From: a virus
DNA length: 36,691 bases
IMG/VR virus record: IMGVR_UViG_3300029203_000014
Strand: one strand, 5' to 3'
The notes under the pieces were generated by a model. It was given only the letters and a program-made list of their open reading frames with translations. It ran no database searches and was not told the DNA's origin. The position numbers and the translations under genes were made by a program. Positions 821 to 34,079 of this stretch are shown here, piece by piece. The number at the start of each line of letters is the position of its first letter. Position 1 is the first letter of the stretch.

Positions 821-878
821 CCGCAAACAAAAAGCACAGCAGTTTTTCGATACATCTGTATCACAACTGCTGTGCTTT
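821..878 (-). terminator. Intrinsic terminator of the integrase gene
   Basis: AAAGCACAGCAG (last codons of int, 878-867) pairs with CTGCTGTGCTTT (842-831), followed on the minus strand by TTGTTTG. Confidence 0.7.
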
Positions 879-2507
879 TGGCAGGGGTAGACCGCTGCCG
901 CCCGTATGCGAAAAATTTTGAAGTTCCGAAAACGGCATTGTTTCGATGGCCTTCGGGATGGCAGAGGGGTTCAGCCGGGCGGGGTTCAGGATAATGCGCA
1001 GCCGGCTGCCGCGCGGGCCGTCATCAAACACAACAATTTTATAGATCAGGTCGCGCACGATTACGCGCATTTTTTCGGGTTGCAATTCGCGCAGGTTTAT
1101 GCCGGACCACACGCGGCGCAGTTCATCCACACTGGCGGCGGCTGATTCTGCGCTGATGTCCAGATCGTTGGCCTGGGCCAGCAGGGTCATGCGCTGTTTT
1201 TGCAGGGCGTTGATGCGCTCAATGGCCCCGGCAGCATCCAGGCCGTTTTCGATGGCCTGATACAGGCGGTCGACCTTTTGCTGTATTATGCCGGCTTCCT
1301 GCTTGAGTTCTTTGGCGCGCTCTGCGTTGCGGCCATCCGGCTGCAGGGCTTCCAGCACAGCAACACATAGGGCATCCATATTAACAGGATCCAGCACAAT
1401 ATGTTGAATATAATCAATCACTGCATTCTCTAAGCGGTCAGCGTTGACGCGGTGGGCGTGCGCTCCCCCGTCGTGCTGCCGGTGCTGGGCAGTGCAGCGG
1501 TAGTACCGGTACTCCACCGCCTTGCCGTGGCTGTTGTAGCGGTGCATTTCGCCGGACATGACCCCGCCGCAGCCGCCGCAATATACCAGCCCGGAAAGCA
1601 GGTAGAAAGCCTTTGCCTTGTACTGGGCGTTGCGGTGCTTGCGTTTATCCATTTCGTCCTGCACGGCCTGCCACTGTTCCGTGGGGATGATCTGCGGCAT
1701 GCCATTCTCCACGCAAACCCATTCGTCCCGCGGTTTGAGCCTGCGGCGGCTGGTGCGGCCGTCCACATCGGCGGGGGCCAGGCGATTCCAGATATACAGG
1801 CCGGTGTATTTTTCGTTGCGCAGGATGTCGTACAGGCTGTTTTTGCCGAATGGCTGCCCCCGGCGGGTTACATAGCCCCCAGCGTTAAGGGCATCTATAA
1901 TTTCAGTGTAGCCCGCTCCCTGCTGGTACAGCTTGAAGATCAGCTGCACCGCCTCAGCCTCCCGCGGAACAATGGCATACTGGCCTGTAGATTTATCCAC
2001 CGTATAGCCCAGCGGCGGCGGGCCGCCGGTGGTTCTTGCTGTAAGAGCGTTTTCGCGCAGACCTTTGGCAACCTCCTGCGCCAGATTGGCGCTGTACCAT
2101 TGGTTGATGGCCTTGGTTACATTGCGCATGAACTGGCCTTGCGGAGTGGCGTCAAAGTGTTCCGCCGCGGAAATGACCTGAATGCCCTGCCGGCGCAGCT
2201 GCATTTCGACTACCGTCTGCTGATCCGCGTTGCGGAAAAAGCGGTCCAGCTTGTGCACGATGATGTATTGCACCCCGGCGGCTGCCGCATCGGCCAGCAT
2301 GCGCTGAAACTCCGGGCGTTCACCCCGGCGGCCAGAATTGCCATGGTCCTTATACACCTGTACCAGCTCATACCCTGCCGTGGCGGCAAAGGTGACGATT
2401 GCACGCTGTTGGGCCTCCAGGGATTCCTCGCGCTGCTCATTGGTAGATTTACGGCAGTAGCCGAAAGCCCGCGGGGCTTGCATAAGAGATGGAATTGTAG
2501 CAGACAT
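861..2507 (-). CDS. int: Large serine recombinase (phage integrase)
   Basis: 548 aa. N-terminal resolvase-type domain (FGYCRKSTNEQ...RPEFQRML...IIVHKLDRFFRN), recombinase domain, Cys-rich zinc ribbon (CGGCGG...YYRC) and C-terminal coiled coil. Confidence 0.9.
   Translation of the reverse strand: MSATIPSLMQAPRAFGYCRKSTNEQREESLEAQQRAIVTFAATAGYELVQVYKDHGNSGRRGERPEFQRMLADAAAAGVQYIIVHKLDRFFRNADQQTVVEMQLRRQGIQVISAAEHFDATPQGQFMRNVTKAINQWYSANLAQEVAKGLRENALTARTTGGPPPLGYTVDKSTGQYAIVPREAEAVQLIFKLYQQGAGYTEIIDALNAGGYVTRRGQPFGKNSLYDILRNEKYTGLYIWNRLAPADVDGRTSRRRLKPRDEWVCVENGMPQIIPTEQWQAVQDEMDKRKHRNAQYKAKAFYLLSGLVYCGGCGGVMSGEMHRYNSHGKAVEYRYYRCTAQHRQHDGGAHAHRVNADRLENAVIDYIQHIVLDPVNMDALCVAVLEALQPDGRNAERAKELKQEAGIIQQKVDRLYQAIENGLDAAGAIERINALQKQRMTLLAQANDLDISAESAAASVDELRRVWSGINLRELQPEKMRVIVRDLIYKIVVFDDGPRGSRLRIILNPARLNPSAIPKAIETMPFSELQNFSHTGGSGLPLPKAQQL
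891..914. repeat. 24-nt repeat copy 1 (inside the int 3' coding end)
   Basis: ACCGCTGCCGCCCGTATGCGAAAA; matches 4205-4228 at 23 of 24 positions, same orientation. Confidence 0.95.
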
Positions 2508-4416: not shown

Positions 4417-4985
4417 CGCCGTTAGAACGCAGCTGGGCCGCTGCCCTGTGCGCCAGTGGGGATGCTGTTGCCAACATGGGCACGGATGCCCTGCGCCTGG
4501 TAGCAACCAAAAAGCCGCAGGACGTTACCAGCGCCGGAATTATGGAGAGCGCCCACAAACTGGCCCGCGCCTGCCGGATCGCTGACGCCACAACCACCAG
4601 CACCCCGGCGGCCCAAAAAGCCGCCGACGCCTATGCGCTGGAAGCTGCCCTGTACGCCGTAGCATATGAAGCTGCACGCCTTGTGCGGTCTGATATGTGG
4701 CGGCTGGTGGCAATGCGGCTGGATGAAGCGCAGGAAGTTGGCACAAGAACGTCTGAATTGCACATCCGGCAGCCGCTGGGCAAGCTGATTATGCGCCGCC
4801 ACCCGCTGGCCGTGCGCGGATCGACCGCCCAGAACCTTGTGGACGAGCTGCTGTACGCCGCGGTAAAGCGCGGCAGGCGGCAGCAGGACTGGGCAAGCGC
4901 GCTGGAAGCCGCTGTGGCCTGCGGCTGCATGATGGACGCTGTGCTGAACTACCCGCCCAGATGGGAGAACCAAGATGGAAAATGA
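4413..4985 (+). CDS. Hypothetical early protein (190 aa)
   Basis: Translationally coupled ORF with phage-typical codon bias; no recognisable domain. Confidence 0.7.
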   Translation: MTPLERSWAAALCASGDAVANMGTDALRLVATKKPQDVTSAGIMESAHKLARACRIADATTTSTPAAQKAADAYALEAALYAVAYEAARLVRSDMWRLVAMRLDEAQEVGTRTSELHIRQPLGKLIMRRHPLAVRGSTAQNLVDELLYAAVKRGRRQQDWASALEAAVACGCMMDAVLNYPPRWENQDGK

Positions 4986-5142
4986 AGAATTTGTGATTGC
5001 GGAGGGCTTTTTGCCGGACGGCACCCCGGTGCTGCCGGGCGCACGCCTGACCGATGAAGCAATACATTGCATTGCCCCCATGCTGGCAGAGCTGTTTGCG
5101 GCGGCACTGGCACGGGAAACCGATAAGAAAAGCGAGGCATGA
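4975..5142 (+). CDS. Hypothetical early protein (55 aa)
   Basis: ATG 4975 overlaps the end of the previous ORF; fills the gap to 5146; MENEEFVIAEGFLPDG... Confidence 0.5.
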   Translation: MENEEFVIAEGFLPDGTPVLPGARLTDEAIHCIAPMLAELFAAALARETDKKSEA

Positions 5143-5145
5143 ACG

Positions 5146-5562
5146 ATGGAAGCCAGAGAATTAAAGGACATGACCGCCGTGCTGCGGTCCATCAATGACG
5201 GCAACCCCAGCAACGCAGAGCGCTGGGTGAACCTGACCCAGCGCGTGATCCGCGCCGAATATCGCGCCAACACGGCAGAGCGAGCTGCCGCCCGCAAAGA
5301 TTGGGAAAAGCAGAATGCCGAAGATGATGCCTGGATGGCCCGCTACCGCGCCGAAGAAGCCAAGCTGGCAGCGCGGCAGGCACAGGAAAATGCAAGCCTG
5401 TGGCGCTGGACTACTGTGGCCATGGCCATTGCACTGGCACTGGCTGTGGCATTTGGCACACACCAGGCGAATGAGGCCGCCCGCTGGCGGTACGAAGCCC
5501 AGGGAATGGGACAAACGGAGATTGTTACCCCGCAGAATCAGAACACGGCGGTGCAGCCATGA
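5146..5562 (+). CDS. Hypothetical membrane-anchored protein (138 aa)
   Basis: Coiled-coil N-terminus, one hydrophobic helix (WTTVAMAIALALAVAFG); ATGA coupling to the next ORF. Confidence 0.7.
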   Translation: MEARELKDMTAVLRSINDGNPSNAERWVNLTQRVIRAEYRANTAERAAARKDWEKQNAEDDAWMARYRAEEAKLAARQAQENASLWRWTTVAMAIALALAVAFGTHQANEAARWRYEAQGMGQTEIVTPQNQNTAVQP

Positions 5563-9095: not shown

Positions 9096-10847
9096 ATGAG
9101 AACACTGGAAGAATATGTGGCCATGATACCAACCGCGCCGCCGGACGACATTGAACGCTATCTGGATGCCCTGGGCAGAAAGCCGTTTGCTGTAACAAGT
9201 TACCGGTGCATATCACGGGATGATGCCGAATTCCGCCTGGATTGCGAAGACTTCCGGGCTGATCTGCGCCCCAGTGCCGCCATACGCCCCGCCGCCCTGT
9301 GGTGCAGCGAGTGTGAAAGCTGGTATCTGGCGGAATACGTCCCGGCCTATGGCGTGCCCTGCAGCCCAAACCTGACATACCAGAACAACAGCGGCGTGCA
9401 GGTCGTGAACGTTGAGCAAGACGCCATTGACAAAAAGCGAAACGGCGAAACCATGGTATGCCCCCTGTGCGGTGCTCAAACGCAGCTGCGCAACGTGCAG
9501 GAGCTGCGGTACGGGCGGGCAGCCCAAGACTTTATCGTGGTGCCCACCGTTGCGGAAAACTGCCTAATATTAACGCAGTGGTGCATTGAGCGCCACATAT
9601 ACGAAGGTCACCGCCACACCGAGCGGAACGCTATTAACGCCTTTGTGGTTGATGGCCGGCGGATCATCAAGCTGGCGCACTACCAGTACAACGCTATGGC
9701 TGGCAGTTGGCGGAACCTGGGCACGTGGGTACAGCGCGCAAAACCGGTAGATGACATTGGCTGCCCGAAAATGTACGCCGCAAACCTGCCAGATTTGGGC
9801 GGCACCGGCGCAGAGAATGCCAAGCTGTGGGAGTACATGGAGCAATCAAACGCAGCAAAAACGTTTTACCCGGTGGCATACCTGCGGCTGTATTTTAAGC
9901 ACCCCAATGTTGAGAACCTGGTAACCGCAGGGCTGGGAAACCTGGTGGGCGATGGAATCGACGGTGAAATGGAACATCGCTACTATACCGGACTTGCCCC
10001 GCAAACAGCGGCTCCAAAGCTGGAGTGGGTGGACTGGAAAGAAAAACGCCCTGCCCAAATGCTAGGTATGACAAAGCAAGAATTGCGAACTTGGAGAGAG
10101 TACGGTCTGGGAGTTGACTGTCTGAGAACGTGGCAAGAGCTGGATACGCTGCCATGCGGCGTAAGCTTCCACGACCTTTGCGCCGCGATGAAAGCCATCG
10201 GAGCATACGACACGCGCCGGATTTTGCGCGAAAAACTGCCGATGATGCGGACCCTAAATTACATAGAGCACCAAGAGCAGGATCTTACGCAGCTTGAGGA
10301 TTATTGGCGCATGGCTGCCGTGGCCGGCTGTGACCTGAACCAGGACGCAGTGCGCTGGCCCAAAGACCTGCGCACCGCCCATGACCGGATGAGCGAAACA
10401 ATACAGTACGAGCGGGTAAGTGGCAAATGCCAGCAAGCGTTCGCCGCCATGACGGCCCGCTGCGCCGGGTTGACATGGGAACATGATGGGATTTGCATTC
10501 GCCCGGCGGAAACGCCGCTTGAGCTGATCCGGGAGGGCAGCACCCTGCACCATTGCGTTGGCAGATACTCAGATGCCCATGCACGGGGCAGAATTATCCT
10601 GTTTGTGAGGCATACCCGACGGCCAGAACGCAGCTGGTACACCCTGAACATTGACGTAACCAGCAAGAGAGAAATCCAGCTGCATGGATACGGAAACGAA
10701 TTTGCCCACGGCAAAAAGCTAAAAATACCCCGGCGGGTCCGGGAATTTGTGGATCTGTGGGAGCGCGAAGTGCTGGCTAAGTGGCAGCTGCCGCCAGAGC
10801 AGAAAGCCAAGAAAAAGAAAAACAAGGCCACCCAGGCAGTGGCATGA
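9096..10847 (+). CDS. PcfJ-like protein
   Basis: 583 aa. C-terminal LIREGSTLHHCVGRYSDAHARGRIILFVR...YTLNIDV...IQLHGYGN matches the PcfJ signature as remembered; N-terminal Cys pairs. Confidence 0.6.
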   Translation: MRTLEEYVAMIPTAPPDDIERYLDALGRKPFAVTSYRCISRDDAEFRLDCEDFRADLRPSAAIRPAALWCSECESWYLAEYVPAYGVPCSPNLTYQNNSGVQVVNVEQDAIDKKRNGETMVCPLCGAQTQLRNVQELRYGRAAQDFIVVPTVAENCLILTQWCIERHIYEGHRHTERNAINAFVVDGRRIIKLAHYQYNAMAGSWRNLGTWVQRAKPVDDIGCPKMYAANLPDLGGTGAENAKLWEYMEQSNAAKTFYPVAYLRLYFKHPNVENLVTAGLGNLVGDGIDGEMEHRYYTGLAPQTAAPKLEWVDWKEKRPAQMLGMTKQELRTWREYGLGVDCLRTWQELDTLPCGVSFHDLCAAMKAIGAYDTRRILREKLPMMRTLNYIEHQEQDLTQLEDYWRMAAVAGCDLNQDAVRWPKDLRTAHDRMSETIQYERVSGKCQQAFAAMTARCAGLTWEHDGICIRPAETPLELIREGSTLHHCVGRYSDAHARGRIILFVRHTRRPERSWYTLNIDVTSKREIQLHGYGNEFAHGKKLKIPRRVREFVDLWEREVLAKWQLPPEQKAKKKKNKATQAVA

Positions 10848-13542: not shown

Positions 13543-13953
13543 GTGGCAGCAGATACTTCTAATCGCGCGCGCGCGGAGATCGCGAAAAGGTCTGCCGCAG
13601 AGCGCAGAAAACTGGCTAAATTTTTGGCCAAAAACGGATTGAATGACGAAAAAATCAAGTCGCTTGACCCGGTGATTTTGAATGTTTCGTGGATGAAATC
13701 CAAGCTGGACGATGCCAGGGAAACCATCGGTGAGGAAGGCATCACGGTGGAATATGACAATGGTGGTGGGCAGTCGGGCGTGAGAGAGAACCCGGCCTTC
13801 CGGGCTTATGAGGCATTGTGGAAAACGTACCTGTCTGGATTGGATATGCTGATTAAGCTCCTACCTGTGGAGGTGCCGCAAGAGCAAATATCCGACATTA
13901 AGCCGACAAGCGTACTCACTCTGGTGCAGAATCGGAGAAAACAGGACGCATGA
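13543..13953 (+). CDS. terS: Terminase small subunit (P27-like)
   Basis: 136 aa. AGGAAGGAGA SD plus GTG start. ...GGGQSGVRENPAFRAYEALWKTY... typical of P27-family TerS. ATGA coupling to TerL. Confidence 0.7.
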   Translation: MAADTSNRARAEIAKRSAAERRKLAKFLAKNGLNDEKIKSLDPVILNVSWMKSKLDDARETIGEEGITVEYDNGGGQSGVRENPAFRAYEALWKTYLSGLDMLIKLLPVEVPQEQISDIKPTSVLTLVQNRRKQDA

Positions 13954-15380
13954 CCGGCGCACAGATTCCAAGATACCGCATCGAGCCGGAGCGCGTTACG
14001 ACCGACGGTGCGGACGCCGCAGCGCTGATGGCTGCCTACGGCAATGCGCTGGATGAATGGCAGCAGCTGGTGCTAGACTGCTGGCTGGGCCGGGATGCAT
14101 CCGGGCGGTACACCGTGACCTCTGCCGGGCTGGCCGTGCCCCGGCAAAACGGAAAAAACGTGTGTCTGGAGGGTCGGGAGTTTTTCGGAGTGGTCATCAA
14201 CGGTGAGAAGATCCTGCACACCGCCCATCAGGTGCGCACGGCGAAAAAGAGCTTTAACCGGCTGGCCCGGATGTTTACAGACAAGCGGCACCCGGAGGTG
14301 CTGGAGCTGGTGAAAAACATCCGCTACACCAACGGTGAGGAGTGCATCGAGCTTCTGAACGGCGGGAGCATTGAGTTCTCGGCCCGATCCCGGCAGGCGG
14401 CCCGCGGCTTTGACGGCATCTCGCTGGTGGTCTATGACGAGGCACAGGAACTGACGGACGACCAGGTGGAGGCCATCATGGCCACGCTGGCCGCATCGGC
14501 CACCGGCACCCGGCAGCTGATCTATACCGGAACCCCGCCTTATCCGGGCTGTCCCGGTGACGTATTCCGCCGCCGCCGGACGGCCTGTCTTGGCGCACCG
14601 GGCGCGCACGATGCCTGGCACGAATGGTCAGTGGAGGGAGAGCAGGTTGACAAGATCGACCTAGAAGATCGCGCGGTCTGGTATCAGACTAACCCGGCCA
14701 TGGGCATTCGGCTCAGCGAGGAGTTTGCGGCGGAGGAGTGCCGGAGCATGAGCGCCGACGGCTTTGCCAGAGAACGCCTGGGCTGGTGGAGCCCCGTTCT
14801 GACGGAGCAGAGCGACAAGGCGCTGGATGCCCGGGCCTGGGAAGCCTGTGCCAGCGAGGCGGAAAAGCCGGACGGCAAAACCGCTTACGGCGTCAAGTTT
14901 GCCGCGGATGGTTCCACTGTCTGCCTGTGCGGCGCGGTGATCCCGAAAGATGGCCCGGCCCGCGTCTCGCTGATCGAACAGCAGCCCACCGGCCGCGGCC
15001 TGGCCTGGCTGGTGGACTGGCTGAACGAACGCTATGACCGCGCAAGCTGTGTGGTGATTGATGGCCGCAACGGGGTGGACGTACTGGTGGAGCGCATCCG
15101 TCCCACCTGGAAAGCCAAAAGCGCCGTGCTCCGCCCCTCTGCCAGGGACGTAATCGCATCGGTGGGGCTGTTTACCACCACCGTGAACGAGCGCGGCCTG
15201 ACCTGGTACAAGCCGCAGCAGGCCCTTGCCGAAAGCGCCGTTACTAGCACCAAGCGTCCCATCAGCGGCGGGTATGGCTTTGGCGGCGACAACAGCCTGC
15301 CGCTGGAAGCCTGCGCCCTGGCACTGTGGGGCGCGAAAACCTGCAAACGCGACCCAACCCGCAAAATGCGCATTGGATAA
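13950..15380 (+). CDS. terL: Terminase large subunit
   Basis: 476 aa; Walker A-like VPRQNGKN, Walker B LVVYDEAQE, C-terminal nuclease region; located between TerS and portal. Confidence 0.85.
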   Translation: MTGAQIPRYRIEPERVTTDGADAAALMAAYGNALDEWQQLVLDCWLGRDASGRYTVTSAGLAVPRQNGKNVCLEGREFFGVVINGEKILHTAHQVRTAKKSFNRLARMFTDKRHPEVLELVKNIRYTNGEECIELLNGGSIEFSARSRQAARGFDGISLVVYDEAQELTDDQVEAIMATLAASATGTRQLIYTGTPPYPGCPGDVFRRRRTACLGAPGAHDAWHEWSVEGEQVDKIDLEDRAVWYQTNPAMGIRLSEEFAAEECRSMSADGFARERLGWWSPVLTEQSDKALDARAWEACASEAEKPDGKTAYGVKFAADGSTVCLCGAVIPKDGPARVSLIEQQPTGRGLAWLVDWLNERYDRASCVVIDGRNGVDVLVERIRPTWKAKSAVLRPSARDVIASVGLFTTTVNERGLTWYKPQQALAESAVTSTKRPISGGYGFGGDNSLPLEACALALWGAKTCKRDPTRKMRIG

Positions 15381-15389
15381 AGGAGAACC

Positions 15390-16805
15390 ATGACGACTAC
15401 CCTAAATTTTGGTATTGTGGCCGGGCTGACCGCCGCGGAACAGCAGCAGCTCAGCGACCTGGCCGAGGCGTACACCTATCACCAGAGCCGCAACGCCACC
15501 AAAGACAAATATTATGAGGGTCATGTGACCCTGCGGGATGTCAACCTTGGCATTGCCCTGCCCACAGGGCTACGCGGGCTGGAGGTCGGCTGCAGCTGGG
15601 GTCAGAAAGCGGTGGACGTACTGGCCGCCCGCAGTATGTTTGACGGCTTTGTGGGCACCGGCGGCAGTCTGGACAGCCTTGCCCGGCTGGTGGCGGATAA
15701 CCGCCTTGTGGCCGAATACGCCAAAGCCTGCCGTGATGAGCTGAAATACGGCTGCGTGTTTGCCACGCTTTCGGCTGACGATGCGATCGGCTGCCGGATC
15801 CGGTTCCACTCCCCTGCTGCGGCCGCTGCCCTGTGGAGCGGCGAGAAAGGCCGGATCGACTGCGGCCTTGCCATCATCGACACCATGAAGGACGAAAAGG
15901 ACGAAGGGAAATGGACCCCGTCCATCGTCAACTTCTATACCGACACCGCCCTGATCGTACTGACCCGCGAAGGGACCGTTTGGACAGCAAAACGGCATCC
16001 CAATAAGATGGGGCGGCCGCTGATGGAGCCACTGATCTGGAACGCCACCAGCAGCAAGCCGTTTGGCCGCTCCCGGCTGAAACGGCCCATCCGCTCACTG
16101 ATTGACGATTATGTCCGGGTTGTGGCCAACGCCGCCATTGCGCTGGAGTTTGACACCACGCCGCAGAAATACATCCTTGGCGTGACGGATGAGCAGTACG
16201 ATACCATCGTATCGGACAAGTTCCGGCAGTATGTCGGGGCGATCATCGCGGCCACGACCAACCCCGAAACCGGCGAAAAGCCCGCGTTCGGCCAGCTGGC
16301 GCAGGGCAGCCTTTCGCCGCACGTTGAAAAGATGCGGATGACGGCCACCCAGTTTGCCGCTGCCACCGGTCTGACCGTGACCGATGTTGGCGTGGTGAAC
16401 GATGCCAACCCCACCAGCAGCGATGCCATACTGGCCCAGAGCCAGACCCTTGTATTGCTGGCCCAGCAGCTGAACACCGGCAACGGCGATGCACTACGCA
16501 CCATTGCCCGGATGGCCCAGGCCATTGCCCGCAAAGTAACGCTGGATGAGCTGACCGAGGAAGAGCGGGACGTGATGGCCCACTTCAAGAACCCGGCGAT
16601 GCCCAGTGTAGCCGTGACCGCGGATGCCGCCATCAAGATTGCTTCCGCCCGGCAGGAGTTTGCCGCCACCGACACGTTTTTGGAGATGATCGGCTTCGAT
16701 CAGGCCGACATCCGGCGCATCCGGGCGCAGGAACAGCGGGTGCGGGGCCAACAGGTGCTGATGGAGATGGAAGACGATGCAGATAACAGCCAACGCCTGG
16801 AATGA
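15390..16805 (+). CDS. Portal protein
   Basis: 471 aa; position between TerL and the MuF head protein; size and acidic C-terminus typical of SPP1-type portals. Confidence 0.8.
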   Translation: MTTTLNFGIVAGLTAAEQQQLSDLAEAYTYHQSRNATKDKYYEGHVTLRDVNLGIALPTGLRGLEVGCSWGQKAVDVLAARSMFDGFVGTGGSLDSLARLVADNRLVAEYAKACRDELKYGCVFATLSADDAIGCRIRFHSPAAAAALWSGEKGRIDCGLAIIDTMKDEKDEGKWTPSIVNFYTDTALIVLTREGTVWTAKRHPNKMGRPLMEPLIWNATSSKPFGRSRLKRPIRSLIDDYVRVVANAAIALEFDTTPQKYILGVTDEQYDTIVSDKFRQYVGAIIAATTNPETGEKPAFGQLAQGSLSPHVEKMRMTATQFAAATGLTVTDVGVVNDANPTSSDAILAQSQTLVLLAQQLNTGNGDALRTIARMAQAIARKVTLDELTEEERDVMAHFKNPAMPSVAVTADAAIKIASARQEFAATDTFLEMIGFDQADIRRIRAQEQRVRGQQVLMEMEDDADNSQRLE

Positions 16806-18030
16806 GTACATCACCCGGCTATCCCGCCTGAACCGGAAAGCCGGACAGCTCATGCGGGAATACATAGGCTCTCACGGCACCGAAAACACGGCCGACCTGA
16901 TTGCCTACGCTTACGGACTTGTGACGAAATACGGTGAGGGCAGCGCAGAGCTGGCCTGCCAGATGTATGACGCCCTTGCCGAAGCGGCCAACGCCGGGGT
17001 GCCCGCCGCCGAGCCTGCCATACCGGCAGACTATGGCGAGGTTGCCCGCATGGTGAACGCCACCAAGGACCAAAACCCGGCCAACCTGCCCAACGGCGTC
17101 AGCCGCCTGGTCAAGCGTGCCGGGGCCGATACCACCCTGAAAAACGCTGTCCGCGACGGGGCTGAGTGGGCCTGGGTGCCGCACGGCGATACCTGCCCGT
17201 TCTGCATCACGCTGGCAAGCAACGGCTGGCAGAAAGCCAGCAGCAAGGTGCTGAAAGGCGGCCACGCCGACCACATCCACGCCAACTGCGACTGTGAGTT
17301 TGCCATCCGGTTTGACCACAATACCACTGTGGCGGGATATGACCCGGAAAAATACCTGAAACAGTACCGGGATGCGGGCGGAGACATCAACAAAATGCGG
17401 CGGGTGAACTACGCCGCCAACAAGGAGCGCATCAATGCCCAGAAACGGGCGGCGTATGCCGAAAGACAAAAGTATTTGATCAGTGCTGCTGAGAGAGGGA
17501 AAGGTCCCATTACGAAAATCACTGATTCCGTAATCAATGATTTCCCCGCTGTTAAGGTCGATTGGTTTACCGAAGATCAAAACAAGCAATTTAGATCGTT
17601 ACATAAAGAACTGCTTCAAACTTCTCGCGACAAAAACAACTGCTTTGAAACAGCTTTTATTGTTTCAGGAGATTTAAGTCGAAAGACTATTGTATTTGGC
17701 GATGAAACCACAATCTCTATTCCACCGCTTTCAACTGGCTTAAATAGTTGGATTTTGCATAACCATCCGAGAAACAGCAGCTTTTCAATTGAAGATATCG
17801 CAGCTGTTACTATTCCTGGATATCAGGGAATCACTATCGCCAAAAACAATGGCGGATTGGAAATATTGACGAAATCTCCAAATTGTGATAACATCAGATT
17901 GCAAAATGATGTGCGACGTTTTCTTATAAGAAAACCCAACAAAATATCTGATTCAGACGCACAAAAAATGATTTCAAAATGGGTTGAAAAGGGGTGGGTA
18001 AAGTGGCTGATAGTAGAAAAGCAGAAGTGA
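16777..18030 (+). CDS. MuF/SPP1 gp7-family minor head protein fused to an AT-rich C-terminal RadC/JAB-like module
   Basis: MuF signatures WVPHGDTCPFC and HANCDCEF. From about nt 17465 the composition drops sharply. C-terminal motif E291...H328-N-H330-P...S337..D340. Confidence 0.8.
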   Translation: MQITANAWNEYITRLSRLNRKAGQLMREYIGSHGTENTADLIAYAYGLVTKYGEGSAELACQMYDALAEAANAGVPAAEPAIPADYGEVARMVNATKDQNPANLPNGVSRLVKRAGADTTLKNAVRDGAEWAWVPHGDTCPFCITLASNGWQKASSKVLKGGHADHIHANCDCEFAIRFDHNTTVAGYDPEKYLKQYRDAGGDINKMRRVNYAANKERINAQKRAAYAERQKYLISAAERGKGPITKITDSVINDFPAVKVDWFTEDQNKQFRSLHKELLQTSRDKNNCFETAFIVSGDLSRKTIVFGDETTISIPPLSTGLNSWILHNHPRNSSFSIEDIAAVTIPGYQGITIAKNNGGLEILTKSPNCDNIRLQNDVRRFLIRKPNKISDSDAQKMISKWVEKGWVKWLIVEKQK

Positions 18031-18167
18031 ATTTTTCGGATTTTGAAGCGGTGGATTTTAGCGATTCCGACCTTGTACTGGATGGCGATTCGGAAGCATT
18101 TGCCAAGTGGTATTTGGAAAAAACAAAGTCACTTGCTCCGCTGGATGACATCAAAGAAGACACCTGA
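18027..18167 (+). CDS. Acidic micro-ORF (46 aa) overlapping the MuF stop
   Basis: GTGA overlap (GTG 18027 / TGA 18028-18030). 13 Asp+Glu against 4 Lys. In the same AT-rich island. Followed by a weak hairpin plus T run. No strong SD. Confidence 0.35.
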   Translation: MNFSDFEAVDFSDSDLVLDGDSEAFAKWYLEKTKSLAPLDDIKEDT

Positions 18168-18234
18168 ACCACGATGCACACGCACCGTGGTATTTTTATG
18201 CCCATTTTTACGAAAAGGATTCAAGGAGGACGAC

Positions 18235-18501
18235 ATGGAACTGAAAGACACTGTAAAAGGCATGATGAGTGACGACTACAAAGAGCGCATGGCAGCCGAG
18301 TATCATCAGACCAAAATCCGTTACGAGAAGCTCAAAAAGCTGAACACCAGAATGGAGGCAAAAGTAATTTGCACATCCAGCGCGGACGAGCCCCAGCTGG
18401 ATGGTACGCCCGCACGCCTGTTGCGTGATCAGCAGCGCATTATGGGGGAGTATCTTCACATTCTGGAACTTCGGGCGGAGATTGAAGAAATCTTCATCTG
18501 A
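18235..18501 (+). CDS. Small helical phage protein (88 aa; crAss001_48-like family by eye)
   Basis: AAGGAGG SD and ATG 18235 (internal to track ORF 18043-18501); ...RMAAEYHQTKIRYEKLKKL...LLRDQQRIMGEYLHILELRAEIE. Confidence 0.6.
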   Translation: MELKDTVKGMMSDDYKERMAAEYHQTKIRYEKLKKLNTRMEAKVICTSSADEPQLDGTPARLLRDQQRIMGEYLHILELRAEIEEIFI

Positions 18502-18511
18502 ATTTTTTCAT

Positions 18512-18547
18512 GTGCTTTTGCACTCAACTGCAAAGGCACTTTTATTA
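18512..18547 (+). terminator. Intrinsic terminator
   Basis: GTGCTTTTGCA/TGCAAAGGCAC 11-bp stem (one G-U), CTCAAC loop, TTTTATTA; a second GC hairpin plus T5 follows at 18549-18588. Confidence 0.65.
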
Positions 18548-18687: not shown

Positions 18688-19224
18688 ATGAAACGTGAAG
18701 AAGTCAAAGCCAAAATTCCCGGCATCACCGATGAGCAGCTGGACTGGCTGATGGGCGAAAACGGCAGGGATATCACCGCCGAAAAGACCAAAGCCACCAA
18801 CCTGCAGATCCAGGTGAACGGCCTGACCACCCAGCTGAACACCGCCAAAGACAGCCTGAAAGCCTTTGAAGGCGTGGACGTGGCCGACCTGAAAGGCCAG
18901 ATCACCAAGCTTCAGGGTCAGCTGACCGATCAGGCCGACAGCTTTGCCTTTGATTCCGCCCTGGACGGCGCAATCCGTGACGCGCACGGGCGTGACGTGA
19001 AGGCCATCCGCGGCATGCTGGATGTGGACGCGCTGAAAGCCAGCAAGGACCGCACCACCGACATCAAGGCCGCGCTGGATGCCCTGACCAAAGAAAAAGC
19101 CTGGGCCTTTGATGCCGCCCCCGGCGGCTACCCCAACGTCCGCGACGGCGGAGACCCGAACAAAACCCCAACCGGTTCCACGCGCGAGCAGTTCGCCGCG
19201 TGGTTTGACCAGGTGACAAAGTAA
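18688..19224 (+). CDS. Head scaffolding protein
   Basis: 178 aa; coiled-coil-rich (LQIQVNGLTTQLNTAKDSLKAFE...), immediately upstream of the capsid gene. Confidence 0.75.
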   Translation: MKREEVKAKIPGITDEQLDWLMGENGRDITAEKTKATNLQIQVNGLTTQLNTAKDSLKAFEGVDVADLKGQITKLQGQLTDQADSFAFDSALDGAIRDAHGRDVKAIRGMLDVDALKASKDRTTDIKAALDALTKEKAWAFDAAPGGYPNVRDGGDPNKTPTGSTREQFAAWFDQVTK

Positions 19225-19236
19225 AGGAGCAAAAGT

Positions 19237-20121
19237 ATGGCATCTATTGACATCAACCGCACGACTACTATTTCCCTGCCGGGCAGCGTGTCCAGCGAAA
19301 TTTTGCAGAAAACCCAGGAATCCAGCGCCATCATGGCACTGGCCCGGCAGATTCCGCTGCCCGGCCTGGGCGTAACCATCCCCGTTATCACCGGCGACCC
19401 CGAAGCGGGCTGGGTCGGTGAGACCGAGAAAAAGCCGGTCAAGCGCGGCACCCTGGCCACCAAGCAGATGACGCCCTATACCCTGGCCGTCATCGTACCG
19501 TTTTCCAACCAGTTCCGCCGCGATGTGCCCGCCCTGTATGATCAGCTGGTGCAGCGTCTGCCCGGCGCTCTGGCCAAAAAGTTTGACCAGACCGTGTTCG
19601 GGGCGGTGGAAGCCCCCGGCTCCAACTTCGATACCCTGAAAGCCTGCACGGCCCAGAGCATCCTGACCAATGCCTACGGCGGTCTGGTTGCCGCCGATGC
19701 AGACATCGCCGCCCATGACGGCATTCTGAACGGCTGGGTGCTGGCCCCGCAGGGCAAGGCCATCCTGCTGAACGCGGTGGACGGCAATAAGCGTCCCCTG
19801 TTCATCAACAGCGTGGCCGAAGGCGCAGTGCCCATGATTCTGGGCGCGCAGGTGCGCCAGAGCAAGGGCGCCTACACGGCCAACACGGCCAGCGATGCCG
19901 CCGTGGTCGGCTTTGCGGGCGACTGGACGCAGGCGGTGTACGGCACCGTGGAGGGCGTGCAGATCGCCATTTCCGACCAGGCCACCCTGACCGACGGTTC
20001 CACCACCATCAACCTGTTTGAACAGAACATGTTCGCCGTGCGCGCCGAGATCGAAGTCGGCTTCCGCTGCGACACCACGGTGTTCAACAAGCTGACCGGC
20101 GCAGCCAAAACGGGGTCCTGA
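19237..20121 (+). CDS. Major capsid protein (HK97 fold type)
   Basis: 294 aa; AAGGAG SD; position after the scaffold; sequence style of the phage major capsid family. Confidence 0.8.
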   Translation: MASIDINRTTTISLPGSVSSEILQKTQESSAIMALARQIPLPGLGVTIPVITGDPEAGWVGETEKKPVKRGTLATKQMTPYTLAVIVPFSNQFRRDVPALYDQLVQRLPGALAKKFDQTVFGAVEAPGSNFDTLKACTAQSILTNAYGGLVAADADIAAHDGILNGWVLAPQGKAILLNAVDGNKRPLFINSVAEGAVPMILGAQVRQSKGAYTANTASDAAVVGFAGDWTQAVYGTVEGVQIAISDQATLTDGSTTINLFEQNMFAVRAEIEVGFRCDTTVFNKLTGAAKTGS

Positions 20122-32666: not shown

Positions 32667-34079
32667 ATGAGACTTTCAAACGAAGACGTTCTGCTTCACT
32701 GGCCCCTGGCCCAGCACATTATCACCGCAGGCTGGCTCTACAATGACGGCAGTCTGCACCGGGCGCTGGATTTCCGCGCGGCGGTGGGCACGCCCGTGTA
32801 CGCTGCGGAGGGTGGCATGGTGGAGACGGCCTACCGCTGGAACGGCAAGCGCACCCAGGGGGACATCAACAGCTATGGCAACATGGTCAAGCTGCGCCAC
32901 ACGACCTACAAGTACGGAGCCCTCGAAACCCTGTATGCCCATCTGAGCAAGCTCTGCGTGACCCAGGGTCAGCAGGTGCAGGAGGGTCAGCTGATCGGCT
33001 ACAGCGGCGATACCGGCAACTGTTACGGCGCACACCTGCATTTTGAGGTGCGCTGGAAAGGCCAGCGCACGAACCCGCTGAACTGGCTGGACAACGATTT
33101 TAGCACGGCCAGCAGTGCGGTCAAGCTGGGCAGCTACAGCAGCGTACAAAGCACAAGTACAAAGGAAGTGAAGCGTATGTATTATGCAATCGACGTATCG
33201 AAACACCAGGGCAAATTTGATTGGCAGGCAGCCTACAGCAAGGGCATCCGCCACGCCATGCTGCGCGCCGGGTATGGCCGTTACAGCAGCCAGGTTGACC
33301 CGCAGTTTGAGCGCAACGCAGCGGAGTGTGCCCGGCTGGGCATCCAGTACGGCGTGTACTGGTACAGCTACGCCAGTACCCCGGCGGAAGCCCGCCAGGA
33401 GGCCCGCTGCTGCCTGGCCGCGATCAAGGGCAAGCACCTGTGCCTGCCGGTGGCCTATGACATTGAGTATGAACAGTGCATTTTGCGCCTGACCAATGCG
33501 CAGCGCACGGCACTGGTGGCGGCGTTCCTGGGCGAGGTCGAGGCGGCTGGATACTACGGCATCCTGTATGCTAGCTGCAATTTTATTCGCAACTGCCTGG
33601 ACTACAAGGCGCTGTCCAAATACGATATCTGGGTTGCCCAGTATGGCAGCACATGCACCTGCCCCCTGCCGTATGGCATCTGGCAGTATTCCAGCCGCAA
33701 CGCGCTGGGCGTGCCCGGCTACGGCACCAGCCTGGACTGCAACCGCGTCTACAAGGATTATGAGCAGCTGATGATCCAGGCGGGCCTGCAGGGCCACACC
33801 GCGCCCACACCGGAGGATACCACCCCCAACAAGCTGGACAAGCAGCAAATCACCATTGGCCGTATCTCCAGCGGCGACCGCGCAACCATCCGCGCCCTGT
33901 GCGATGGGCTGGGACTGATCGCGGCGGGCCTGTACCGCGAAACCTGTGCGGATGGCAACCAGTGGATGCTGGACGTTGGGCCGGTATCCAGCGGCGACGC
34001 ATGGTACATCATGCGTAAGTGCGCAGAGCTGCAGCTGATTGACGCAGGGCTGTACAAGGCCGAGTATGTGGAGGAGTGA
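32667..34079 (+). CDS. Bifunctional endolysin: M23 peptidase + GH25 muramidase + two C-terminal repeats
   Basis: M23: HRALDFRAAVGTPVYAA...GNMVKLRH...YAHLS...GDTGNCYGAHLHFEV. GH25: YAIDVSKHQGKFDW...LRAGYG. Then two roughly 40-aa SSGD...AGLY repeats. Confidence 0.85.
   Translation: MRLSNEDVLLHWPLAQHIITAGWLYNDGSLHRALDFRAAVGTPVYAAEGGMVETAYRWNGKRTQGDINSYGNMVKLRHTTYKYGALETLYAHLSKLCVTQGQQVQEGQLIGYSGDTGNCYGAHLHFEVRWKGQRTNPLNWLDNDFSTASSAVKLGSYSSVQSTSTKEVKRMYYAIDVSKHQGKFDWQAAYSKGIRHAMLRAGYGRYSSQVDPQFERNAAECARLGIQYGVYWYSYASTPAEARQEARCCLAAIKGKHLCLPVAYDIEYEQCILRLTNAQRTALVAAFLGEVEAAGYYGILYASCNFIRNCLDYKALSKYDIWVAQYGSTCTCPLPYGIWQYSSRNALGVPGYGTSLDCNRVYKDYEQLMIQAGLQGHTAPTPEDTTPNKLDKQQITIGRISSGDRATIRALCDGLGLIAAGLYRETCADGNQWMLDVGPVSSGDAWYIMRKCAELQLIDAGLYKAEYVEE

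What the first reader, a model, noticed from the sequence alone, without database searches (positions are those of the whole stretch)
17465..18030. MuF head protein carries a compositionally foreign C-terminal module with a RadC/JAB-like metalloprotease motif: candidate injected effector
The N-terminal 230 aa are a standard MuF/gp7 domain (WVPHGDTCPFC, HANCDCEF) in GC-rich sequence; 17041-17100, for example, has 39 G+C in 60 nt. From about 17465 the same ORF becomes AT-rich: 17641-17700 and 17881-17940 each have 20 G+C in 60 nt. This part encodes about 190 aa containing E291(TAFIVSGD)...ILH328NH330PRNSSFS337IED340. That matches the JAMM/RadC pattern E...HxH...S..D with the RadC-like HNHP signature, although the H-to-S spacing is one residue shorter than canonical. 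Established: MuF-family proteins are packaged in the capsid, and many are polymorphic-toxin or polyvalent carriers of variable C-terminal effector domains. Inference: this is a horizontally swapped effector delivered with the DNA. A JAB isopeptidase could plausibly counter ubiquitin-like or Cap2-type conjugation defences, or it could act as a toxin.
Basis: partly seen in the sequence, partly recalled or inferred. Interest (0 to 1): 0.75.

Follow-up and report, generated by a model that had tools for sequence, protein, structure and literature searches.

The report
Swappable JAB-like cargo on phage MuF protein
A gut prophage's capsid-internal MuF-type head protein ends in a recently acquired, AT-rich enzyme domain with a JAB/JAMM metal-hydrolase fold that always travels with a tiny acidic partner gene; this is a new toxin-like cargo family within the already known "MuF polymorphic toxin" scheme.

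Summary
ORF 16777-18030 (417 aa) has a MuF-superfamily (Pfam VG15) N-domain. At nt 17460 (aa 230) it switches to a module with GC 0.38 (GC3 0.35, against 0.77 upstream).

- **Family.** The module belongs to a family that matched no Pfam, NCBIfam or PADLOC model (about 1,200 clusters at 50% identity, all in uncultured phages and prophages, mostly of Clostridia). It is always C-terminal, on three MuF families, portals and a polyvalent protein, or stand-alone.
- **Fold.** N287xxxE291, H328-N-H330-P, S337 and D340 are 97-100% conserved. Two AlphaFold models (pLDDT 89-91) find JAB/JAMM structures as best PDB neighbours (BubCD, RadC, PfJAMM1, AF2198), but only at E about 0.01 and TM 0.5-0.58. Pfam JAB and RadC models stay below threshold.
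- **Swapping.** N-domains 92-98% identical carry at least 8 unrelated tails (PBECR nuclease, ADP-ribosyltransferase, DUF6883, two other JAB-like alleles, none), all diverging at the same residue.
- **New here.** A 34-60 aa acidic ORF with an invariant LDG motif overlaps the 3' end of the JAB gene in 124 of 132 loci, with its own ribosome-binding site.

Best reading: a MuF polymorphic toxin/effector cassette with an immunity-like inhibitor. The proposed role against ubiquitin-like defences has no direct evidence.

The parts
15390..16805 (+). Portal protein gene. The MuF-type gene is the next gene downstream and overlaps it by 29 nt.
   Evidence: PF05133 SPP1_portal, E 1.6e-5 (24.5 bits, just under the 25.5-bit cutoff). 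The same gene is listed under SPP1_portal in sister contigs.
16777..17466 (+). Conserved N-terminal carrier domain (aa 1-230) of the MuF superfamily (Pfam VG15), with CxxC...HxNCxC motifs.
   Evidence: PF25310 VG15, E 1e-43. phrog_193, E 3e-33. PF04233 itself does not hit, but P0160 matches PF04233 and PF25310 on the same stretch. 120 relatives are 92-98% identical over this part yet carry different tails.
17459..17460 (+). Left recombination junction of the swapped cassette (after '...INAQKRAAYA', aa 228-230).
   Evidence: blastn similarity to both L005 and L006 ends at 17459. The protein alignment is invariant up to R230 and unrelated afterwards. The GC drop starts in the 17460 bin.
17467..18030 (+). 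AT-rich C-terminal JAB/JAMM-like module (aa 231-417). The core fold is 17563-17889.
   Evidence: No Pfam or NCBIfam hit. 1,218 representative clusters at E<=1e-3, with the domain always C-terminal. AF2 models have pLDDT 89.1 and 90.7. Foldseek top hits are JAB/JAMM and RadC structures.
17632..17636 (+). A5 run (codons K286-N287). An A6 allele in sister contigs frameshifts the gene just before the catalytic NxxxE.
   Evidence: L003 and L004 are identical across the whole module except for one extra A here, giving a 290-aa product, P0005. The intact allele is on 208+ contigs, the frameshifted one on 3.
17635..17649 (+). N287-x3-E291, the predicted general-base glutamate at the start of the strand that follows helix 1.
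   Evidence: N is kept in 178/180, E in 177/179, and the spacing of 4 in 177/189. This is the same 'NxxxE' signature listed for Tox-JAB-1 in PMC3482391.
17758..17796 (+). H328-N-H330-P-R-N-S-S-F-S337-I-E-D340, the JAMM-type metal-binding motif (HxH at a strand end, SxxD at a helix start).
   Evidence: Conservation is 99-100%. The secondary-structure placement comes from the models. H330-to-S337 is x6, one residue shorter than the x7 seen in E. coli YicR 'HNHPSGCAEPSKAD'.
18003..18167 (+). Small acidic 'LDG' partner ORF (54 aa from GTG 18003; alternative start GTG 18027 gives 46 aa). It overlaps the 3' end of the JAB gene and is a candidate inhibitor or immunity protein.
   Evidence: A homologous ORF is present in 124/132 loci with a complete 3' end, in 49 distinct sequences. 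L, D and G are (near-)invariant. A Shine-Dalgarno-like sequence lies 6-10 nt upstream in 43/49. Median charge is -8.4. Gene callers call it in sister contigs.
18165..18209 (+). Conserved 45-nt boundary element: a hairpin (18168-18191) followed by a U-rich tail, marking the right end of the cassette.
   Evidence: 91% identical to L006 4219-4263, and repeated in L006 at 4622-4661 on either side of its YjcQ gene. Folding gives -12.9 kcal/mol, z = -3.45.
18235..18501 (+). Neighbouring accessory gene of the Sequestin family (a 3'cADPR sponge that inhibits Thoeris). It is not part of the JAB cassette but sits in the same variable slot.
   Evidence: PF21825, E 3.5e-14 and 52.9 bits. Its function is described in bioRxiv 10.1101/2025.07.12.664507. 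GC3 of 0.62 is intermediate.
18688..19224 (+). Scaffolding protein gene. The conserved head module resumes here; DNA homology to the orthologues resumes from about 18515-18540.
   Evidence: PF06810, E 1.3e-29. blastn.

Best explanation
This is a MuF-type polymorphic toxin/effector cassette.

Shown: a conserved capsid-internal carrier (the VG15/MuF domain, encoded directly after the portal gene) is joined at a fixed point (aa 230) to an exchangeable two-gene module. The first part of the module is a ~185-aa JAB/JAMM-fold domain that keeps all five catalytic-type residues (E, HxH, S, D). The second is a translationally coupled, very acidic 34-60 aa 'LDG' microprotein.

Inferred mechanism: the JAB-like domain is an active Zn-dependent hydrolase. 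In the producing cell the microprotein binds and blocks it in stoichiometric amounts. One possibility is that the invariant Asp of LDG reaches the metal site, or that its acidic tail covers a basic substrate surface. The MuF domain tethers the enzyme inside the capsid at the portal, and it enters the next cell together with the DNA. There it acts on a host macromolecule, as the nuclease and ADP-ribosyltransferase alleles at the same junction presumably do.

The substrate class is unresolved. I lean slightly towards a nucleic acid or nucleotide target (about 0.45) over a peptide or isopeptide bond (about 0.35).
For: - **Polymorphism.** N-domains 92-98% identical carry PBECR2/3, ADPrib_exo_Tox, DUF6883, two further JAB-like alleles (25% and 21% identical to this one), three unknown tails or a 17-aa stub, all diverging after INAQKRAAYA. 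More distant orthologues (52% and 51% protein identity overall; 75-76% nucleotide identity over the N-domain) carry CdiA_C-like and DUF6883 tails. The DNA breakpoint is at 17459 in both.
- **Foreign origin.** GC3 is 0.35 against 0.77. The domain's GC3 is below that of its own carrier in 67/67 distinct fused loci, and its GC is below the flanks in 137/137 loci.
- **Fold and motif.** Catalytic-type residues are 97-100% conserved. Foldseek top hits are the BubCD JAB domain (prob 0.99, TMq 0.53), RadC 2qlc (prob 0.99, TMq 0.51), PfJAMM1 (TMq 0.58, rmsd 3.8) and AF2198 (prob 0.84). Subthreshold Prok-JAB and RadC Pfam hits align in register with the motif.
- **Capsid location.** The same domain is fused to Phage_Mu_F, Phage_min_cap2, VG15 and Phage_portal, and occurs in a 1,136-aa PBECR3 polyvalent protein. 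16 'minor capsid proteins' in BFVD share the fold.
- **Partner gene.** Present in 124/132 loci, with an SD-like sequence in 43/49 and invariant LDG. Charge is -8.4 against a domain pI of 8.7 (window: -9.5 against +8). It is absent downstream of the non-JAB alleles in L005 and L006.
- **Framework.** MuF toxins of temperate Firmicute phages are followed by small ORFs in 89% of cases (PMC5576092). JAB-fold toxin domains Tox-JAB-1 and Tox-JAB-2 exist in polymorphic toxins (PMC3482391).
Against: - No activity, toxicity, metal binding, packaging or ejection has been shown for any member.
- The fold assignment rests on Foldseek E-values of 0.01-0.03 and TM 0.5-0.58. No sequence profile reaches significance (hhalign against YicR matches only a 12-column motif, prob 4%; PDB hmmsearch finds nothing).
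- Cytidine and blasticidin deaminases, which Zhang et al. 2012 (PMC3482391) place in the same deaminase-like fold as JAB, score nearly as well.
- The partner ORF lies in the late operon with no significant promoter of its own. It would therefore protect producing cells, not lysogens, which is unlike a classical immunity gene.
- At 34-60 aa it is unusually small for an immunity protein.
- A portal-fused copy could not leave the capsid unless it is cleaved.
- The host of this particular phage was not identified.
Confidence: 0.68

Rival explanations
1. Anti-defence isopeptidase. The injected JAB domain removes ubiquitin-like conjugates made by Bil, Bub or type II CBASS (Cap2) systems, or cleaves a defence protein, early in infection. 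The LDG microprotein would act as a latency factor or pseudo-substrate.
For: The best structural neighbour of the core model is the JAB/JAMM peptidase of the bacterial ubiquitination-like BubCD protein (its function is described in bioRxiv 10.1101/2024.11.21.623953). Every biochemically characterised JAB enzyme is a peptidase acting at the C-terminus of ubiquitin-like proteins (PMC3482391). The gene sits next to a proven class of anti-defence gene, Sequestin. Delivery at the moment of infection would suit a counter-defence enzyme.
Against: There is no PADLOC hit to Cap3, BilC or similar models. The family shares the HNHP and NxxxE signatures of the RadC and Tox-JAB-1 clades, which Aravind's group argues lack the groove for the ubiquitin tail. 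The region between E and HxH is about 25 residues shorter than in BubCD (E28...H91, against E291...H328). The alleles identifiable at the same junction are toxin-type enzymes, not known anti-defence proteins. Sequestin is not linked to the module in other lineages. A strictly coupled inhibitor is not expected for a harmless deconjugase.
Confidence: 0.12
2. Virion-assembly or self-processing peptidase. The JAB domain cleaves the MuF or portal carrier, the scaffold or the capsid protein during head maturation, or releases itself, rather than acting on the host.
For: It is a peptidase-type fold fused to head proteins, including the portal. PHROGs labels the carrier family 'head maturation protease'. 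No separate prohead protease was recognised between the portal and capsid genes. Iyer et al. propose autoproteolysis for peptidase domains of packaged polyvalent proteins.
Against: It is dispensable and interchangeable. Near-identical phages carry nucleases, an ADP-ribosyltransferase, DUF6883 or no extension at all at this position, and a frameshifted allele circulates. Stand-alone copies exist away from head genes (L001, L002). Its foreign codon usage argues against a core morphogenetic function.
Confidence: 0.08
3. Catalytically inactive, purely structural or binding domain, or not a JAB fold at all (for example a deaminase-like or novel fold in which the motif resemblance is convergent).
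For: Fold-search E-values never go below 0.01. Deaminases score similarly. The motif spacing is non-canonical (x6). All sequence-profile tests fail.
Against: The residues that remain invariant across a family with 24% mean column identity are exactly the five JAMM catalytic positions, placed on the matching secondary-structure elements. No deaminase H/CxE...PCxxC motif is present in the sequence. Four different JAB structures head two independent searches.
Confidence: 0.07

Closest known systems
MuF polymorphic toxins of temperate Firmicute phages (Jamet et al. 2017, PMC5576092)
   Same: The carrier gene lies immediately downstream of the portal. A conserved N-domain is joined to variable C-terminal enzymatic domains. 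A small ORF follows directly downstream. The phage is temperate (serine recombinase at 861-2507) and abundant in the human gut.
   Different: The C-terminal domain here is not among the domains that paper names in its main text (nucleases, metallopeptidases, ADP-ribosyl transferases and RelA-like domains). 'JAB' and 'RadC' do not occur in its main text, and occur in the held supplements only inside a phage name. The carrier is Pfam VG15 rather than PF04233 or PF06152. The partner ORF is only 34-60 aa and overlaps the toxin gene.
[quoted passage not shown] 2012, PMC3482391)
   Same: A JAB (deaminase-like) fold is used as the C-terminal toxin module together with a dedicated immunity gene. The Tox-JAB-1 signature 'NxxxE, HxH, S, D' matches N287xxxE291, H328xH330, S337, D340.
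   Different: Tox-JAB-1 is reported only on RHS toxins of Bacteroidetes, with a lipoprotein immunity protein (Imm65). Tox-JAB-2 pairs with NTF2-like immunity. Here the carriers are phage head proteins of Clostridia and the partner is an acidic microprotein. A direct sequence relationship could not be tested.
RadC-like JAB domain (PF04002; E. coli YicR; PDB 2qlc), also found in polyvalent proteins of phages and conjugative elements (Iyer et al. 2017, PMC5512222)
   Same: The HNHP signature is shared. 2qlc is the second-best structural neighbour (prob 0.99, TMq 0.51). Both occur on mobile-element proteins thought to enter the cell with the DNA.
   Different: The Pfam RadC model scores 13 bits at best, against a cutoff of 22.1. 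hhalign matches only 12 columns. The region between the catalytic E and HNHP is shorter: a modal 37-39 residues against about 50 in YicR (E120...H170). The H-to-S spacing is one residue shorter. There is no N-terminal HhH domain.
JAB/JAMM Ubl peptidases (BubCD N-domain 9ea4, P. furiosus JAMM1 5ld9, AF2198 1oi0; by function also Cap3 and BilC)
   Same: These are the best overall fold matches, with the same order of catalytic residues on the same structural elements.
   Different: There is no associated E1, E2 or Ubl gene and no PADLOC match. The scaffold is shorter. Whether a Ubl-tail groove exists is unknown.
Capsid-packaged injected effectors (T4 Alt, P1 Dar proteins, and PBECR/2H/InPase fusions to MuF or portal; summarised in PMC5512222)
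   Same: The architecture has the same logic: a head-targeting part plus an enzymatic effector, including parallel fusions to both MuF and portal.
   Different: Packaging and ejection are experimentally shown for Alt and Dar proteins, but not for any member of this family.

Membership tests
JAB/JAMM (MPN+) metallohydrolase superfamily | Catalytic residues E ... HxH ... S..D are present and conserved | tested here: met
   E291 177/179, H328 181/183, H330 183/183, S337 180/182, D340 181/181 in 189 members.
JAB/JAMM (MPN+) metallohydrolase superfamily | Canonical spacing HxH-x7-S-x2-D | tested here: not met
   H330-to-S337 is x6 in 182/189 members. E. coli YicR has x7 (HNHPSGCAEPS). S-x2-D is kept.
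JAB/JAMM (MPN+) metallohydrolase superfamily | JAB (deaminase-like) alpha/beta fold, with HxH at a strand end and SxxD at the start of the following helix | tested here: met
   AF2 models have pLDDT 89.1 and 90.7. Top PDB neighbours are 9ea4 BubCD (prob 0.99, TMq 0.53), 2qlc (prob 0.99, TMq 0.51), 5ld9 (TMq 0.58, rmsd 3.8) and 1oi0 (prob 0.84). Caveat: E-values are 0.012-0.03 and none is <=1e-3.
JAB/JAMM (MPN+) metallohydrolase superfamily | Significant sequence-profile match to a curated JAB family (Prok-JAB PF14464, RadC PF04002 and others) | tested here: not met
   The window domain has no hit at E<=1. Among 65 members, Prok-JAB hits 2 (best E 0.007, 16.7 bits against a cutoff of 25) and RadC hits 3 (best E 0.063). 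PDB profile searches find no JAB.
JAB/JAMM (MPN+) metallohydrolase superfamily | Zn2+ binding and hydrolase activity | not testable with these tools
   Needs purified protein. The coordinates of the models could not be inspected for site geometry.
RadC-like JAB (PF04002) | HNHP signature | tested here: met
   N329 183/183, P331 182/183.
RadC-like JAB (PF04002) | Match to the RadC profile above the gathering score, or profile-profile homology to YicR | tested here: not met
   Best score is 13.3-13.6 bits against 22.1. hhalign of A1 against the YicR alignment gives 12 columns, prob 4.4% (the YicR alignment was shallow, 72-94% identity).
MuF polymorphic toxin system (Jamet et al. 2017) | N-terminal MuF-superfamily domain encoded directly downstream of the portal gene | tested here: met
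   The gene overlaps the portal gene's end. PF25310 VG15, E 1e-43. The VG15 and Phage_Mu_F models hit the same stretch of P0160 and P0169. PF04233 itself does not hit the window protein, and a shallow hhalign was uninformative.
MuF polymorphic toxin system (Jamet et al. 2017) | Unrelated C-terminal domains on a conserved N-domain | tested here: met
   8 tail clusters (one of them this JAB-like module) plus a short form among 120 proteins that are 92-98% identical in aa 1-230.
MuF polymorphic toxin system (Jamet et al. 2017) | Small ORF immediately downstream (candidate immunity gene) | tested here: met
   The LDG ORF is present in 124/132 loci.
MuF polymorphic toxin system (Jamet et al. 2017) | Toxicity of the C-terminal domain and neutralisation by the downstream product | not testable with these tools
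   Requires expression assays.
Tox-JAB-1 (Zhang et al. 2012) | Signature NxxxE, HxH, S, D on a JAB fold serving as a toxin module | tested here: inconclusive
   The motif matches. However, no Tox-JAB-1 sequence or model hit was available to test homology, and none appeared in the Pfam scans at E<=10.
Defence-associated Ubl deconjugases (Cap3, BilC, BubCD JAB) | Match to the defence-system JAB models, or an operon with E1/E2/Ubl genes | tested here: not met
   No PADLOC JAB hit for 8 members. The neighbouring genes are phage head genes.

The most novel reading that the evidence does not exclude
The JAB-like cargo is a virion-delivered (iso)peptidase that strips or cleaves components of ubiquitin-like conjugation defences (Bil, Bub, type II CBASS) as soon as DNA enters the cell. 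The invariant-LDG microprotein is a new kind of 'aspartate-switch' pseudo-substrate that keeps it latent in the producing cell. This would be the first injected anti-ubiquitination weapon of a phage, and a new class of microprotein enzyme inhibitor.
Probability: 0.1. Interest if true: 0.85.

Novelty: new member of a known kind. Interest (0 to 1): 0.5.

Why it matters
MuF polymorphic toxins are common in human-gut Firmicute phages, yet about a third of their C-terminal extensions have no known domain (PMC5576092). This work assigns one such 'dark' extension to a large family that matched no model in the Pfam, NCBIfam or PADLOC libraries (about 1,200 clusters at 50% identity). The exact 417-aa protein occurs on more than 200 public contigs. 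The family has a JAB/JAMM-like catalytic centre and an obligate microprotein partner.

What JAB-fold toxins and RadC-like proteins actually hydrolyse is a long-standing open question: peptide bonds or nucleic acids. A small, self-contained enzyme-plus-inhibitor pair, with natural knock-out alleles and isolate hosts that carry relatives (Ruminococcus flavefaciens SAb67, Paenibacillus oceani IB182363), gives a tractable system for answering it. The locus is also a clean natural example of cassette exchange at a single residue, bounded by a reusable hairpin element.

Tried and rejected
- **Sequence routes to JAB homology.** Pfam, NCBIfam and PADLOC on the window domain gave nothing. hmmsearch of family profiles against PDB found only spurious repeat proteins. 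hhalign against a YicR alignment matched only the HNHP motif. That YicR alignment was shallow because the homologue search returns only the closest 120 hits, so this test is weak.
- **MuF membership of the N-domain.** hhalign of the VG15 N-domain against PF04233 proteins, using 3-sequence alignments, was uninformative.
- **Cultured phages.** tblastn of two family members against 50,697 GenBank phage records gave no match, so no cultured phage with virion proteomics is available.
- **Partner ORF annotation.** PHROGs had no family for the small ORF.
- **Separate promoter for the small ORF.** There was one weak hit against 2.2 expected by chance, so this was rejected.
- **Programmed frameshifting at the A-run.** Rejected as unlikely. 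The A6 allele needs a +1 shift, and the slippery heptamer is not in the zero frame (read directly from the sequence). This was not tested further.
- **Cytidine-deaminase reading of the fold.** Rejected because no H/CxE...PCxxC motif is present.
- **Head-maturation protease.** Rejected as the main reading because the module is interchangeable and dispensable.
- **Tool limits.** A genome-contig scan with the broad alignment A4 failed for lack of conserved words; A1 was used instead. No complex prediction could be run, because structure-prediction jobs were capped and accept a single chain only.
Full report
**1. Observation**

ORF 16777..18030 (+) encodes 417 aa. GC is 0.616 over aa 1-230 and 0.38 over aa 231-417. 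Third-position GC falls from 0.77 to 0.35, so codon usage changes and not just amino-acid content. This is the lowest-GC 561-nt stretch of the whole window, 3.8 sd below the mean.

**2. Genomic context**

The window is a temperate siphovirus-type prophage or phage. It carries a large serine recombinase (861-2507, minus strand), a probable large terminase by position (13950-15380; no Pfam hit), a portal (15390-16805), this gene, a scaffold (18688-19224), an HK97-type capsid protein (19237-20121), and an M23+GH25 endolysin (32667-34079). The exact 417-aa protein is on more than 200 public metagenomic contigs and is named only 'hypothetical protein'.

**3. The N-terminal part**

Residues 3-200 match Pfam VG15 (PF25310, E 1e-43) and PHROG 193. 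The classical Phage_Mu_F model PF04233 does not hit. However, the gene is the +1 neighbour of the portal, which is the criterion Jamet et al. used to extend the MuF superfamily. The VG15 and PF04233 models also hit the same stretch in P0160 and P0169. I accept 'MuF-superfamily carrier' and note that it is a different Pfam family.

**4. The junction**

Two more distant orthologues are 75-76% identical in DNA up to window position 17459 and unrelated afterwards. Their proteins are invariant through INAQKRAAYA.R. They then carry a CdiA_C-like tail (E 6e-5, below the Pfam cutoff) and a DUF6883 tail (32 bits against a cutoff of 27) respectively.

Among the 120 closest relatives of the N-domain (92-98% identical), the tails fall into 8 unrelated clusters plus a 17-aa stub:

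- PBECR2/3 nuclease: 58 proteins
- an unknown tail of about 110 aa: 28
- DUF6883: 8
- this JAB-like module: 6
- an unknown 115-aa tail: 6
- ADP-ribosyltransferase PF03496: 2
- others, including one tail that proved to be a divergent JAB-like allele (next paragraph)

Two further JAB-like alleles sit on the same carrier. They are only 25% and 21% identical to this one, and one has HTHP in place of HNHP. This is textbook polymorphic-toxin architecture.

**5. The C-terminal module as a family**

It has no hit in Pfam, NCBIfam or PADLOC. A profile search of 1.84 billion representative proteins finds 1,218 clusters at E<=1e-3. In every listed hit that is not an obvious fragment, the domain lies at the extreme C-terminus.

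The carriers are Phage_Mu_F, Phage_min_cap2, VG15, Phage_portal, a MuF protein containing an intein, and a 1,136-aa polyvalent protein with PBECR3. Stand-alone copies also exist. Hosts are rumen and gut Clostridia (Ruminococcus, Oscillospiraceae, Lachnospiraceae) and a Paenibacillus. No cultured-phage record has it.

**6. Is it a JAB domain?**

Across 189 members, the positions that stay invariant are N287, E291, G308, H328, N329, H330, P331, S337 and D340. These are the five JAMM catalytic positions plus the RadC-like N and P.

Two AlphaFold2 models were made, one of the whole module (pLDDT 89.1) and one of the core only (pLDDT 90.7). Both place E291 at the start of the strand after a long helix, HxH at the end of a strand, and SxxD at the start of the next helix. 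To my knowledge this is the JAMM arrangement; I did not check it against a solved structure here.

Foldseek against the PDB gave these results:

- For the whole module, AF2198 ranks first (E 0.03, prob 0.84) and PfJAMM1 is also listed.
- For the core, the JAB/JAMM domain of BubCD ranks first (E 0.012, prob 0.99, TMq 0.53), then RadC 2qlc (E 0.014, prob 0.99, TMq 0.51), with PfJAMM1 at TMq 0.58 and rmsd 3.8 Å. BubCD's active site is described.
- Cytidine and blasticidin deaminases, which Zhang et al. 2012 place in the same deaminase-like fold as JAB, follow closely.

Sequence-level links are only subthreshold. Prok-JAB reaches E 0.007 and RadC E 0.06-0.08 in a few divergent members, in register with the motif. 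hhalign against YicR aligns only the HNHP motif.

My conclusion is that this is a divergent, compact clade of the JAB superfamily. It is not a member of the RadC Pfam family. Its signature 'NxxxE, HxH, S, D' coincides with that published for Tox-JAB-1.

**7.

A small ORF starts 12-18 nt before the stop codon of the JAB gene in 124 of 132 loci with a complete 3' end. There are 49 distinct sequences of 33-60 aa. They share M-x(4-8)-h-L-D-G-[SNT]-x-E-E followed by an acidic tail. D is invariant, and L and G are kept in more than 90%.

A GGAGG-type ribosome-binding site lies 6-10 nt upstream in 43 of 49. It is encoded by the conserved 'EGG' codons of the JAB C-terminus. The proteins have a median charge of -8.4, against a median pI of 8.7 for the domain.

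In the window, the positionally homologous start is GTG 18003, which overlaps the W codon and has an AAGGGG sequence upstream. Some gene callers use GTG 18027 instead, which overlaps the TGA stop. The ORF is absent after the non-JAB alleles. It is therefore part of the swapped cassette.

**8. Cassette boundaries and origin**

The left edge is at 17459/17460. Immediately after the small ORF's stop codon comes a 45-nt hairpin-plus-U-tract element (18165-18209; -12.9 kcal/mol, z = -3.45). It is 91% identical to an element that flanks the accessory YjcQ gene on both sides in orthologue L006.

In 137 of 137 loci the module's GC is below that of its flanks, by 0.12 on average. In 67 of 67 distinct fusions its GC3 is below that of its own carrier (median 0.26 against 0.50). 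The module pool therefore looks like it circulates from low-GC genomes faster than it adapts to the composition of its carriers.

**9. Dispensability**

Sister contigs L003 and L004 are identical over the whole module except for one extra A in the A5 run at 17632-17636. This truncates the protein at 290 aa, just before NxxxE. The intact allele is far more common.

**10. Interpretation**

The best-supported reading is a MuF polymorphic toxin/effector cassette, consisting of a JAB-fold hydrolase and an immunity-like microprotein inhibitor. It would be tethered in the capsid and delivered with the DNA. Packaging, ejection, catalysis and inhibition are all inferred.

The anti-ubiquitin-like-defence idea is possible, given the BubCD-like fold and the neighbouring Sequestin anti-Thoeris gene. 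It lacks any specific support, however, and is disfavoured by the RadC/Tox-JAB-type signatures and by the toxin-type sister alleles. A morphogenetic protease role is disfavoured by the module's interchangeability.

**11. Novelty**

MuF toxins (2017), JAB-fold toxins (2012) and RadC domains in packaged polyvalent proteins (2017) are all known. What is new is this particular large family, which matched no Pfam, NCBIfam or PADLOC model and which I did not find described in the papers I searched, together with its obligate LDG microprotein. I rate it a new member of a known kind, of moderate interest.

Noticed in passing
window 18235-18501 (+): An 88-aa gene directly downstream of the cassette belongs to the Sequestin family (PF21825, E 3.5e-14). 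This family was recently shown to sequester 3'cADPR and inhibit type I Thoeris. It has a perfect AAGGAGGA ribosome-binding site and intermediate GC3 (0.62), so it looks like a separate acquisition in the same variable slot. Orthologue L006 has a YjcQ-family gene there instead.
   Followed up: partly
window 17632-17636; L003 8856; L004 8273: An A5-to-A6 length polymorphism frameshifts the MuF-JAB gene in two independent metagenome assemblies, while the rest of the module is 100% identical. It may be a natural knock-out or an assembly artefact. The intact allele predominates.
   Followed up: partly
window 18165-18209; L006 4219-4263 and 4622-4661: A 45-nt hairpin plus U-rich element sits at the right edge of the cassette and is duplicated on both sides of the accessory gene in an orthologous phage. 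It could be an intrinsic terminator, a recombination boundary sequence for cassette exchange, or both.
   Followed up: partly
P0003, P0009, P0022, P0087, P0089, P0109, P0130 (e.g. L001 6001-6654): Seven of the 186 family proteins checked, all short stand-alone ones (149-247 aa), begin with a conserved 'F/W-x-E-x-(E/K)-H-P-R-D-x-x-G-(K/R)-F' motif in place of a MuF or portal domain. It may be an alternative capsid-targeting or processing signal.
   Followed up: no
P0057 (626 aa), P0041, P0092 (1,136 aa), P0119 (835 aa): The same JAB-like domain is fused to the C-terminus of portal proteins, ends a PBECR3-containing polyvalent protein, and follows a MuF domain interrupted by an intein. Some proteins (P0079, P0185) show two matched stretches.
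   Followed up: partly
window 18512-18539 (+): A strong terminator-like hairpin (11-bp stem plus a T run) lies just after the Sequestin stop codon, inside what should be the late head operon and upstream of the scaffold gene.
   Followed up: no
L014-L086 around 4775-5230; L039 2165-2644: In the commonest IMG/VR lineage carrying the module, the next gene after the LDG ORF encodes a ~150-aa protein with a lipoprotein-like signal (…LVTVGCTEA…). It may be a superinfection-exclusion or moron gene in the same slot.
   Followed up: no
window 9096-10847 (+) and 32667-34079 (+): A 583-aa PcfJ-like protein (PF14284) lies in the early/replication region. The endolysin is bifunctional, combining Peptidase_M23 and Glyco_hydro_25.
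   Followed up: no
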